Origin: a virus
Taxonomy: Duplodnaviria > Heunggongvirae > Uroviricota > Caudoviricetes
Length of the DNA stretch: 8,315 bases
Strand: one strand, 5' to 3'
IMG/VR virus record: IMGVR_UViG_3300045988_169852
Location: 1 to 8,315 of that record
In this document: positions 3,001 through 6,000 of the stretch, one piece after another
How positions within the stretch are numbered: the stretch's first letter is position 1
Layout: each line of letters starts with the position of its first letter
Position numbers: made by a program

Positions 3001-6000
3001 GCGCGAATATCTGGCCCGTGAGCGGCAGAATCTTTCTGATGGTCTGGTTATTGAGTTTCCGGTAAAGAAAAAAGATACCGGAAGCCATAGCGATGACGAA
3101 TTAAAGCCACGCGTTGAAAGTCGCGCCGATGGTGTTTTCTGGGTAACGCCCAAAGTGGATAAGCAGTCAGGCGAAATTATCCGGCCTGAGACGTGGTTAT
3201 GTTCTCCGCTTGAACTACTGGGAACGGGGACGATCGGTAAAGAGCATTACCGCGTCATGCGCTGGAAAAAATTAGCAAATCATGAAGTCATCACAATGGC
3301 GATCCCGTGTGGTGGCATTGGCGACCGTGACGGCTGGCGGTTGCTTAAAGATCACGGGCTGAACGTGACAACAAACGGCAAATACAGGGCTATCCTGGCT
3401 GACTGGATGCAGTTAAGCGGAAGCCATGAGGAATGGCAGTTAAGCACAACAACGGGCTGGCATTTTGGCGCGTACATCATGCCGGACGGTTCGATCATTG
3501 GTGAATCTGAAAAACCGATCCTGTTTACCGGAAAAAGTGCCGCTATTAATGGCTATTCGGTTGCGGGTACGGCGGAGGGCTGGCGCGACAGCGTGGCGCG
3601 GCTGGCTGGTGGCAATCCGTCCATGATGCTGGGTATTGCCACGTCACTGGCAGCACCGTTGATTGGCCTTGTTGGTGCTGACGGCTTCGGTGTACATCTT
3701 TTCGAACAGTCATTGGCAGGGAAAACCACCACGCAGAACATCGCATCAAGTTTATGGGGAGAGCCAGACTCACAACGGCTGACCTGGTACGGCACAGCGT
3801 TAGGTATCGCTAACGAGGCAGAGTCGCACAACGACGGGCTGTTACCCTTGGATGAAATAGGCCAGGCCGGAAACGCGCGGGAGGTGTCCACGTCAGCCTA
3901 TACGTTGTTTAACGGTTCCGGGAAATTACAGGGGGCGAAGGACGGCGGCAACCGGGAGATAAAACACTGGCGCACGGTGGCAATCAGCACCGGAGAAATG
4001 GACGTTGAGACATTCCTCAAAACGGAGGGGATAAAAGTCAAAGCGGGGCAGCTTGTCCGCCTGCTTAACGTTCCGATGGAAAAAGCCACGCACTTTCACG
4101 AATACAGCACCGGAAAGGCGCACGCAGACGCGTTAAAGGATGCCTGGACAGAAAATCACGGGGCAGCGGGTCGTGAGTGGGTTAAATGGCTGGCAGGCCA
4201 CCAGCAGGAGGCAAAGGATACGGTAAGGGAATGCCGCGAACGGTGGCGCAACCTGATACCGGAGAGCTACGGCGAGCAGGTCCACCGCGTGGGTGAGCGT
4301 TTCGCCATACTGGAGGCCGCGCTTGTGCTTTCCGGTCATGTAACTGGCTGGGCCGCGCAGGAATGCCGGGACGCAATACAGCATAACTTTAATGCCTGGG
4401 TGAAGGAGTTCGGCACGGGTAACAGGGAATTTAAACAGATGGTTGAACAGGCTGAGGCGTTTTTGTCGTCGTTTGGGTTTAGCCGCTACCTTCCGTACCC
4501 CAATACAGATGAGCGTGATTTACCGATTAAAGAGCTTGCCGGATACAGAAAAGGGAGCATTCGCAACGAAGATGACGAGATGCGCTATTACACGTTCCCG
4601 CACGTGTTTGAGAGTGAGATAGCGAAGGGATTTAATCCGGCGCATTTTGCGCGTGCCCTGGATGCTGCCGGAATGCTGGAGAAGGGAAGCGATCGCCGAT
4701 ACAAAAAAAAGGCGCTGGGCAAGATTGGGGGTAAGCAGCATGTTTTTTACGTGCTGATGTTCCAGCCTGATGATGAAGATTAATCCCCTGTGTGAGGAAA
4801 AAAATTGCGGGTTATGCGGGTTATCCTGTGTATAAGTGTATTAAGTGCATGAATATAAAGGAAACCAATAACCCGCACGTAACCCGCAAAAGGGCATTTA
4901 TAACCCGCAAAAGCACGATTATAACCCGCAGGCGAATAACTGAAGTAACACCGGACAGTCATGCGTAACCCGCAGAAAAAACCCCGTTTGCGGGTTATTT
5001 TGAGCGTTTTGCGGGTTACGTGGTGAGCAAATAATAAACAGGGCGTTTTGCAAAATACTGATATAAAAGGATAAAAAATGGTTAGCACGCTAAGATAACC
5101 CAATAACCCGCATAACCCGCACATGTTTCTATATATATAAATTGAGGTGGCAAATGACCAGAACACGCAGAGACAGAACAGAGCCAAAATATAAAGCGTT
5201 AGACATGACTGAGCACACCTTAAAGGTGGCAATCAGAACGATAGACCGCCACACGCGGGAAGGATACGCGAAGGAACATCCCGACCTGATAAGCGCATTC
5301 ATGACCACGGCGGCGGCAAACTTTGCCACGCTGACAGAACGGGAGATTGCCGAAGCGGAACAGGTGACAACCATCAACGTTAAAACCGGAGAGCAGACAG
5401 CATGACAGCACAGATAGCGGCTTACGGGCGGCTGGTGGCTGACCCGCAGTTAAAGACCACCAGCAAGGGTACACAAATGACGATGGCTAGTATGGCGGTC
5501 CCCCTTCCGTGCAGCCAGGCAGATGACGGAACGGCGACGATGTGGTTATCCGTCCTGGCGTTTGGCAGACAGGCCGACGCACTGGCAAAACACCACAAAG
5601 GCGAACTGGTGAGCGTGGCGGGTAACATGCAGGTAAGCCAGTGGACAGGCCAGAACGGCGAAACGCGGCAGGGCTGGCAGGTTATCGCAGACAGCGTAAT
5701 CAGTGCGCGAACGGCGCGACCGGGCGGCAAAAAAGGCCAGCAGGGGCAGGCCACTGACGCACTGAACAGGGCAAAACAACAGGCGGGTAACGATGATCCG
5801 TACGGGGATAACATACCGTTTTAAGCGACGAGTGACAGAAGCCGGAGCAATCCGGCTTTTTTGCGCCCAAAAAAAGCCCGATAAGGTCAGAGGTGGCTTA
5901 TCGGGCTTTTGCATATGAGGTTTTTTGGTGCACTGACACACATGATTGGGATAATAATTTCATAATTTGCAACGCAACTCAATATCATTGCACAAAATGC

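What the first reader, a model, noticed from the sequence alone, without database searches (positions are those of the whole stretch)
5154..5824. Two-gene unit after the origin: unknown 83-aa protein translationally coupled to a compact SSB with IPF tail
A dedicated SSB is not a standard satellite replication gene. The C-terminal IPF tip is the motif by which SSB recruits host DNA-metabolism proteins, so a satellite SSB could support its own replication, compete with host or helper SSB, or modulate systems that sense phage SSB. The partner gene is overlapped by ATGA and has no recognisable family. The unit sits between the origin and the capsid module and is bounded by two strong terminators, which makes it look like an independent cargo module.
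Basis: partly seen in the sequence, partly recalled or inferred. Interest (0 to 1): 0.7.

Follow-up and report, generated by a model that had tools for sequence, protein, structure and literature searches.

The report
Satellite's own SSB and small partner
The window is a phage satellite (PICI) of E. coli whose replication module ends in a small unknown gene overlapping a genuine single-stranded-DNA-binding protein gene; the pair is real but is a common, conserved part of these satellites, including the model element EcCICFT073, and not an unusual cargo.

Summary
Both ORFs are real: an 83-aa gene (5154-5405) overlaps by ATGA a 140-aa SSB gene (5402-5824). The SSB has an OB fold by profile and by structure, and its D-x-I-P-F tip is conserved. 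The pair starts about 30 nt after an iteron origin.

It is not an odd cargo module. The same rep–ori–small ORF–ssb order occurs in 1766 of 5426 complete E. coli genomes. That is 3-5 times more than the flanking DUF927 replicase (339) or capsid module (598). It occurs in the model PICI EcCICFT073 and in cfPICI-type islands, behind three unrelated replicase types. SSB genes in the "Replication" zone of Gram-negative PICIs have been noted in print (PMC10111431). I found no functional study.

Neither protein has a close relative in 50,697 phage records, so the pair looks specific to satellite-type islands.

The two terminators are both downstream and are confined to the window and its closest relative L001. 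The other loci checked have a PerC, ProQ/FinO-like or other gene within 10-40 nt.

The 83-aa protein belongs to a large uncharacterised family (phrog_1231, 635 representative clusters). In 5 of 7 remote contexts its members sit in integrative elements or prophages that carry a primase-helicase or Prim-Pol gene, directly after it in two, never next to an SSB gene.

Best reading: accessory end of the satellite replication module. Interest is modest.

The parts
2645..4783 (+). Replication initiator (DUF927 helicase with a Cch-type C-terminal HTH; N-terminal ~130-230 aa shared with other PICI replicases). Context for the pair.
   Evidence: PF06048 E 3e-46 and PF18662; phrog_1139 DNA primase E 4e-188; N-terminal domain shared with D5_N/DUF5906 and RepA-type replicases.
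4805..5122 (.). Iteron origin: two sets of TAACCCGCA repeats in both orientations around an AT-rich stretch (about 5023-5095).
   Evidence: Repeat families D1-D6 and inverted pairs I1-I6. Same layout as described for E. coli PICI origins in PMC6092414.
5144..5149 (+). Shine-Dalgarno-like GAGGTG of the 83-aa gene. DNA similarity to most other E. coli loci begins here.
   Evidence: Sequence. Most matches start at query position 45-54, which is window 5144-5153.
5154..5405 (+). 83-aa gene (phrog_1231 family): variable basic N-terminus and a conserved helical core with the motif ID..xxEGYAKxHPxLIxAFMxTAAxxF.
   Evidence: AF2 gives a helical hairpin at pLDDT 60. Wide family. dN/dS 0.3-0.7.
5388..5393 (+). 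GGAGAG Shine-Dalgarno for ssb, inside the 3' end of the 83-aa gene, 8 nt before the ATG.
   Evidence: Sequence. Conserved in 7 of 7 E. coli loci.
5402..5824 (+). ssb, 140 aa. OB domain is residues 1-102 (nt 5402-5707). A short charged linker with low model confidence is residues 103-130. The C-terminal tip DDPYGDNIPF is nt 5792-5821.
   Evidence: PF00436 and TIGR00621 above cut-off. PDB and Foldseek matches to bacterial SSBs. Tip conserved across homologues. dN/dS 0.10-0.26.
5840..5863 (+). Intrinsic terminator-like hairpin T1 (AGCCGGA-GCAA-TCCGGCT followed by T6).
   Evidence: Fold -17.9 kcal/mol, z -3.7. Conserved in L001 only.
5866..5913 (.). Terminator-like hairpin T2 with a 14-bp stem, an A-run before it and a T-run after it (possibly bidirectional).
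   Evidence: Inverted repeat I9. Fold -23.6 kcal/mol, z -4.1.

Best explanation
The two genes form the accessory, distal end of the replication module of a Gram-negative phage-inducible chromosomal island (PICI). The order is replicase, iteron origin, 83-aa gene, ssb.

Shown:
- The SSB is a canonical bacterial-type OB-fold SSB. It keeps three of the four aromatic ssDNA-contact positions of E. coli SSB and the acidic D-x-I-P-F tip.
- The pair sits directly after the origin, whichever replicase family is present.
- In this lineage it is followed by terminators and a separate capsid unit.

Inferred:
- On induction by a helper phage, the AlpA-driven rightward transcript reads through the replicase gene and origin into the pair. 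DNA similarity to other loci begins exactly at the small gene's ribosome-binding site, so no shared promoter is apparent.
- The two proteins are made together through the ATGA overlap.
- The SSB coats the single-stranded DNA opened by the island's helicase-primase. Through its IPF tip it brings in host partners such as the Pol III chi subunit. This would sustain the island's burst replication when host SSB is limiting, because of SOS-induced ssDNA and replication of a lambdoid helper that has no ssb of its own.
- The 83-aa protein is a small helical accessory factor of the same module. In 5 of 7 remote contexts its relatives lie in integrative elements or prophages that carry a primase-helicase or Prim-Pol gene, directly after that gene in two and overlapping alpA upstream of it in two. 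Its partner is therefore more likely the replication or host machinery than the SSB itself.

Both genes are helpers and not essential parts. A pri-ori plasmid of EcCICFT073 replicates in E. coli, and natural islands exist with only one of the two genes.
For: - OB fold and family membership.
- Conserved W48, F54, W81 and tip D136, P139, F140 across homologues from Escherichia, Salmonella, Citrobacter, Leclercia, Edwardsiella and Scandinavium.
- Census of 80 IMG/VR loci. In 78, the small gene lies 178-376 nt (once 711 nt) after a RepA-type (46), D5_N/DUF5906 (28) or DUF927 (4) replicase gene. Of the other two, one has an unrecognised upstream gene and one is cut by the contig end. ssb follows directly in 70 of 80.
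- The same order occurs in EcCICFT073, in an O157:H7 PICI and in cfPICI-type islands.
- In other genera the ssb homologue lies downstream of the island's replicase gene: about 190 nt after it in Leclercia, 0.4-1.1 kb with intervening ORFs in Citrobacter, Edwardsiella and Scandinavium.
- The pair is in 1766 genomes, against 339 for this replicase plus origin and 598 for this capsid module.
- Remote relatives of the 83-aa protein lie beside Prim-Pol/DUF5906, DUF927, Zn-ribbon/DUF3987 or AlpA genes.
- PMC10111431 places SSB with primase and origin in a 'Replication' category.
- A pri-ori plasmid is sufficient for replication (PMC6092414).
Against: - There are no expression or biochemical data.
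- pri-ori alone replicates, so any replication benefit is quantitative and unproven.
- Host SSB is abundant, and limitation during induction is assumed, not shown.
- The census loci were chosen as the best matches to the query, so the frequencies are biased.
- The hairpin between the replicase gene and the pair (4966-4998) could terminate transcription. The pair would then need its own promoter, and none was found.
- The role of the 83-aa protein rests on gene neighbourhood only. Its model is poor (pLDDT 60), and 2 of 7 remote contexts were uninformative.
Confidence: 0.55

Rival explanations
1. Cargo, counter-defence or defence-modulating module. The satellite SSB would act as a decoy or shield towards host systems that sense phage SSB or ssDNA, or would protect incoming or replicating satellite DNA. 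The 83-aa protein would be its cofactor.
For: The pair is specific to satellite-type islands and absent from deposited phages. SSB and small-gene alleles are shuffled between islands. Either gene can be lost. In this window the unit ends in terminators.
Against: Its position is fixed next to the origin and not in a variable hotspot. It is more widespread than its flanks. There is no PADLOC hit. The terminators are confined to the window and its closest relative L001. ssb is under strong purifying selection (dN/dS 0.1-0.26). That rate fits a housekeeping-type role and shows no sign of the fast evolution expected in an arms race.
Confidence: 0.15
2. Helper interference. The satellite SSB competes through its IPF tip and ssDNA binding with host SSB on helper replication or recombination intermediates, and so lowers helper yield.
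For: The tip is conserved. The linker is short and differs from that of host SSB, and the protein is only 25% identical to E. coli SSB. PICIs commonly interfere with their helpers (PMC6092414).
Against: Known EcCICFT073 interference is attributed to packaging redirection (title and abstract of PMC6739421). cfPICI EcCIEDL933 is reported not to block its helpers, and cfPICI-type islands sampled here carry the pair. I did not check EcCIEDL933 itself. An SSB that poisoned replication would also harm the island.
Confidence: 0.1
3. The two genes are functionally unrelated neighbours. The 83-aa protein would be a regulator linked to AlpA or replicase expression or to origin firing. The SSB would be a separately acquired replication helper, and the ATGA overlap would reflect only compaction.
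For: Remote family members never sit beside an ssb, and in two island types they overlap alpA instead. Islands with only one of the two genes exist. In other genera ssb has a PerC-like gene or nothing upstream. Nearly identical small-gene alleles occur with SSB alleles that are 70%, 90% and 97% identical to the window's SSB.
Against: The overlap and the ribosome-binding site are conserved in 7 of 7 E. coli loci. The two genes are adjacent in 70 of 80 loci.
Confidence: 0.2

Closest known systems
Orthologous pair in the model Gram-negative PICI EcCICFT073 (CFT073 NC_004431.1, C_RS06990 hypothetical protein and C_RS06995 single-stranded DNA-binding protein)
   Same: The order is the same: primase, about 290-nt origin, 85-aa gene, ATGA overlap, ssb, and further on a 68-aa gene, major capsid, decoration protein and a 137-aa gene. 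The small protein is 84% identical over 67 aa and the SSB 71%.
   Different: The replicase is D5_N/DUF5906 type, not DUF927. A PerC gene follows ssb within 10 nt in place of the two terminators. The SSB linker is a different variant.
E. coli chromosomal SSB (PF00436; structures 1eqq and 1eyg)
   Same: The OB fold, the aromatic positions equivalent to W54, F60 and W88, and the C-terminal D-x-I-P-F tip.
   Different: Only 25% identical. It is 140 aa against 178 aa. The linker is about 30 residues and charged, not about 60 residues and rich in Gly, Gln and Pro. The W40 and H55 equivalents are absent.
SSB genes of conjugative plasmids (leading region)
   Same: A mobile element carrying its own bacterial-type SSB with an acidic tip (from general knowledge).
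   Different: Only 49 of 72,556 plasmid records match at E 1e-5, and the best of these look like PICI-type loci or chromosomes filed as plasmids. This is therefore not the plasmid SSB lineage. cos-packaged double-stranded DNA entry also gives no obvious need for an early ssDNA coat.
SCCmec replication module (Cch DUF927-type helicase with an accompanying ssDNA-binding protein)
   Same: An integrative element with a DUF927/Cch-like helicase (NF047345 and PF18662 hits) that also encodes its own ssDNA-binding protein (the latter from my own recollection of the literature, not checked here).
   Different: The match to Cch1 is weak (35 bits against a cut-off of 700). As I recall, the SCCmec ssDNA-binding protein is not a PF00436 OB-fold SSB. 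The hosts and element types differ.
phrog_1231 (unknown function)
   Same: The 83-aa protein matches it over its full length (E 2e-52), and all ten remote relatives tested match only this family.
   Different: The family has no annotation, no Pfam model and no solved structure.

Membership tests
Bacterial SSB family (Pfam PF00436 / TIGR00621) | Profile score above the curated cut-off | tested here: met
   PF00436 59.3 bits against 26. TIGR00621 61.1 bits against 53.95.
Bacterial SSB family (Pfam PF00436 / TIGR00621) | OB-fold beta-barrel with a helix between strands 3 and 4 | tested here: met
   The AF2 model has strands at residues 3-11, 16-19, 25-36, 44-54, 69-82 and 88-101, and a helix at 55-62. 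Core pLDDT is about 83. Foldseek top hits are SSBs, with target-normalised TM-score 0.74-0.82.
Bacterial SSB family (Pfam PF00436 / TIGR00621) | Aromatic ssDNA-contact residues (E. coli W40, W54, F60, W88) | tested here: inconclusive
   W48, F54 and W81 align with W54, F60 and W88 and are invariant. There is no aromatic residue at the W40 position.
Bacterial SSB family (Pfam PF00436 / TIGR00621) | Acidic C-terminal tip ending in IPF, after a disordered linker | tested here: met
   The protein ends ...DDPYGDNIPF. D136, P139 and F140 are invariant in 24 sequences. Residues 103-140 have pLDDT below 50.
Bacterial SSB family (Pfam PF00436 / TIGR00621) | Binds ssDNA as a homotetramer and binds partner proteins through the tip | not testable with these tools
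   Needs biochemistry.
Gram-negative PICI (as defined in PMC6092414) | alpA regulator, unidirectional genes, and a replicase gene followed by an iteron origin with an AT-rich centre | tested here: met
   AlpA at 316-504, replicase at 2645-4783, iterons at 4805-5122. Layout as in the Fig. 2 legend of PMC6092414.
Gram-negative PICI (as defined in PMC6092414) | Integrase at one end, size about 10-20 kb, and a helper cos site | tested here: inconclusive
   The window starts after the integrase position. The closest relative L001 is an island of about 11.5 kb, with an integrase, inserted in tqsA. Positions 8132-8215 resemble the cos/terminase region of phage 21 at 83-96% identity.
Known anti-phage defence systems (PADLOC-DB v2) | Match to any defence-protein model | tested here: not met
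   No hit for either protein at E 0.01.
Conjugative-plasmid SSB | Close relatives common on plasmids | tested here: not met
   49 of 72,556 plasmid records match, and 41 of those 49 are non-mobilizable.
PerC family (the small gene upstream of ssb in Citrobacter and Scandinavium islands) | PF06069 match for the 83-aa protein | tested here: not met
   No Pfam hit except a chance-level COG5_N match at E 0.044.

The most novel reading that the evidence does not exclude
The 83-aa protein would represent a widespread, unrecognised class of small helical replication accessory factors (phrog_1231-like; 635 representative clusters at 50% identity). These travel with the primase-helicase and AlpA modules of satellites, integrative islands and some prophages. 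In E. coli PICIs the factor would have been wired by translational coupling to a satellite-specific SSB. Together the two would form a replisome-adaptor pair that lets three unrelated satellite replicases use the host polymerase.
Probability: 0.2. Interest if true: 0.55.

Novelty: new member of a known kind. Interest (0 to 1): 0.3.

Why it matters
The result corrects the picture. The SSB is not a rare cargo. About a third of complete E. coli genomes carry it in the same slot beside the satellite origin, together with a small gene of unknown function. The same slot is occupied in EcCICFT073, the best-studied Gram-negative PICI.

If the pair raises satellite copy number or couples satellite helicases to host Pol III, it would be a general and so far untested component of PICI replication. 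It could also be a lever for engineering PICI-based delivery vehicles.

The 83-aa family is large and lacks any Pfam model or structure. Its tendency to occur in elements that encode primase-helicases gives a concrete starting hypothesis.

Tried and rejected
- AlphaFold of the 83-aa protein with 30 close homologues gave pLDDT 60. Foldseek against the PDB then gave nothing (best E 7.8). A profile search of PDB sequences found only designed helical bundles at E above 0.05.
- Pfam, NCBIfam and PADLOC gave nothing for the 83-aa protein or its remote relatives.
- tblastn of the 83-aa protein and of a remote relative against phage records found nothing.
- The genome-contig scan with the SSB returned only 9 loci because the peptide patterns were too specific.
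- Two guesses at the position of EcCICFT073 in CFT073 landed on a prophage and on core genes before the third found it.
- The consensus scan missed T1 and T2 and found no sigma-70 promoter upstream of the pair. The terminators were confirmed by folding.
- I considered homology of the small protein to PerC, to P4 Eta and to plasmid SSB partners. There is no sequence support for any of these.

Full report
**What the window is.** The window carries the following, in order:
- an AlpA regulator (316-504);
- a YlcI/YnfO gene on the opposite strand;
- a C4 antisense RNA with its target;
- a DUF4222 gene;
- a 712-aa DUF927/Cch-like replicase (2645-4783);
- an iteron origin;
- the two genes of the finding;
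- a 68-aa gene;
- a lambda-E-type major capsid gene and a gpD-type decoration gene;
- a 137-aa gene with similarity to the C-terminal part of head-maturation protease (phrog_53);
- a stretch similar to the cos region of phage 21.

This is the layout of a Gram-negative phage-inducible chromosomal island (PICI). The closest complete relative found (L001) is an island of about 11.5 kb, with an integrase, inserted in tqsA.

**Observation.**
- The 83-aa ORF starts at ATG 5154, behind GAGGTG.
- The 140-aa ORF starts at ATG 5402, which overlaps the TGA of the first gene. GGAGAG lies 8 nt upstream of that ATG.
- Both genes are under purifying selection: dN/dS is 0.10-0.26 for ssb and 0.3-0.7 for the small gene, whose N-terminus is variable.
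- The SSB passes the curated cut-offs of PF00436 and TIGR00621.
- It matches solved bacterial SSBs by sequence. Its AlphaFold model has an OB core (pLDDT about 83) whose best Foldseek matches are SSBs, with target-normalised TM-score 0.74-0.82.
- In an alignment with homologues from six genera and with E. coli SSB, W48, F54 and W81 (E. coli W54, F60, W88) and the tip residues D136, P139 and F140 are invariant. The linker is short, and the W40 and H55 equivalents are missing.
- Iterons TAACCCGCA at 4805-5122 flank an AT-rich centre, as described for E. coli PICI origins (PMC6092414).

**Terminators.** Two strong hairpins followed by T-runs lie in tandem after ssb (5840-5863 and 5866-5913; z -3.7 and -4.1). 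The only hairpin upstream of the pair (4966-4998) is a pair of inverted iterons. The unit is therefore closed at its 3' end but not clearly at its 5' end. No sigma-70-like promoter was found upstream. DNA similarity to most other E. coli loci begins exactly at the small gene's ribosome-binding site. This argues for read-through from the replicase operon.

**Distribution in E. coli.**
- The 671-bp pair matches 1766 of 5426 complete E. coli genomes (2363 places). 1400 genomes cover at least 80% of it.
- The flanking replicase plus origin is in 339 genomes, and the capsid-decoration module is in 598.
- In 80 IMG/VR loci with close relatives of the small gene, it lies 178-376 nt (once 711 nt) after a replicase gene in 78. 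The replicase is RepA-type in 46, D5_N/DUF5906 in 28 and DUF927 in 4. Of the other two loci, one has an unrecognised upstream gene and one is cut by the contig end. ssb follows directly in 70.
- Downstream modules vary: lambda-E capsid with or without PerC, HK97 capsid with PerC, ProQ/FinO-like, or none.
- Nearly identical small-gene alleles are joined to SSB alleles that are 70%, 90% and 97% identical to the window's SSB.

**Presence in known elements.**
- The same order is present in the model PICI EcCICFT073. There the island's c1499 capsid and c1500 decoration genes follow.
- It is present in an O157:H7 PICI.
- It is present in cfPICI-type islands that carry portal, protease, HNH and terminase genes.
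- The ATGA junction is identical in 7 of 7 E. coli loci checked.
- Only the window and L001 have the downstream terminators. In L016, L044 and L046 a PerC gene starts about 10 nt after ssb, in L002 a ProQ/FinO-like gene after 36 nt, and in L013-L015 an unnamed 80-82-aa gene after about 20 nt.
- Islands with ssb alone (L002) or with the small gene alone (L003, and 10 of 80 IMG/VR loci) exist.

**Other genera, phages and plasmids.**
- In Leclercia, Citrobacter, Edwardsiella and Scandinavium the ssb homologue (53-67% identity) again lies downstream of the island's replicase gene: about 190 nt after it in Leclercia, 0.4-1.1 kb with intervening ORFs in the other three. There is no homologue of the small gene. 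Two of these islands have a PerC-like ORF in that position.
- The small protein has no hit in 50,697 phage records. The SSB's best phage hit is 31% identical.
- Plasmid hits are few and mostly on non-mobilizable records.

**The 83-aa family.** Close relatives are confined to Escherichia, Shigella and Citrobacter (171 clusters).

A profile search finds 635 representative clusters at E up to 0.001. They share the core motif ID..FGxGYAKxHPELIxAFMxTAAxDF. They match only phrog_1231, with no Pfam family and no solved structure.

Contexts of seven remote members:
- directly after a Prim-Pol/DUF5906 replicase in a Pseudomonas prophage;
- directly after a Zn-ribbon/DUF3987 primase-helicase in a marine island;
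- overlapping alpA upstream of a DUF927 gene in two Nitrosomonas-type islands;
- about 0.9 kb downstream of a Prim-Pol gene, past three small ORFs, in an integrase/AlpA element;
- two unclear cases.

None has an adjacent ssb. The conserved association of the family is therefore with elements that encode replicase and AlpA modules, not with SSB.

**Literature.** PMC10111431 places 'Primase, SSB and DUF5906' of Gram-negative PICIs in a Replication category that colocalises with the origin. The PICI and cfPICI papers I could read do not mention the gene, and no functional study turned up. PMC6092414 reports that a pri-ori plasmid of EcCICFT073 replicates in DH5alpha. The pair is therefore not essential for basal replication.

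**Interpretation.** The best-supported reading is that the pair forms the accessory end of the PICI replication module.
- The SSB would coat ssDNA at the satellite fork and recruit host partners through its tip during induced burst replication.
- The small protein would be an accessory factor of the same module, with an unknown partner.

The position, the distribution and the fold are shown. The timing of expression, any limitation of host SSB, and the function of the small protein are inferred.

The cargo or counter-defence reading is weakened by four points: the fixed position beside the origin, the pair's greater spread than its flanks, the absence of PADLOC hits, and strong purifying selection on ssb.

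**Verdict.** The feature is real and correctly described. It is an ordinary and very common component of E. coli PICIs, and its presence has already been noted in print. What remains open is its function, and especially that of the widespread small-protein family.

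Noticed in passing
window 1618-1667 and 1735-1822 (+): Rfam C4 antisense RNA (72.6 bits against a gathering score of 45) and its a1/b1 target (46.8 against 46.7). This is a P1/P7/P4-type RNA immunity element in the early region of the island.
   Followed up: no
window 8132-8215: This stretch is 83-96% identical to the cos/terminase-proximal region of phage 21 and related lambdoid phages. It is the only DNA similarity of the whole window to deposited phages and is probably the island's cos site.
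   Followed up: no
window 5959-6050: A promoter-like site (TTCATA-18-TATCAT, 5959-5988) is followed by a perfect 15-bp inverted repeat (6013-6044) and a T-run, just upstream of the 68-aa gene and the capsid operon. This could be a regulated terminator or an operator for the late unit. In this lineage it replaces the PerC gene found at this position in EcCICFT073.
   Followed up: partly
window 2645-3340 (replicase residues 1-230): The N-terminal 127-230 residues of the DUF927 replicase are 60-72% identical to the N-termini of D5_N/DUF5906 and RepA-type replicases of other PICIs, although their C-terminal regions differ. A shared N-terminal module appears to be swapped between helicase types.
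   Followed up: partly
window 7694-8107 (+): The 137-aa protein after the decoration gene matches phrog_1999 and the C-terminal part of head-maturation protease (phrog_53, profile positions 494-567). It may be a Nu3-like scaffold encoded without the protease.
   Followed up: no
L002 9492-9989; L004 10453-10923; L006 10453-10938: In several islands ssb is followed within 3-40 nt by a ProQ/FinO-family gene (annotated as such in L002; the Leclercia ORFs were judged by eye only, without a profile search). This is another nucleic-acid-binding protein in the same slot.
   Followed up: no
L030 7729-8255; L034 7717-8321: In Nitrosomonas-type islands the remote homologue of the 83-aa protein overlaps the alpA stop codon by 4 nt. 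These islands also carry RnlAB toxin-antitoxin genes or a type I restriction-modification system downstream of a DUF927 gene.
   Followed up: no
L012 9444-10072 (Shigella flexneri): The small gene is intact, but only the first 24 codons of ssb could be matched after it. The locus as fetched ends at that point, so this may be a limit of the peptide-pattern match rather than a truncated gene.
   Followed up: no
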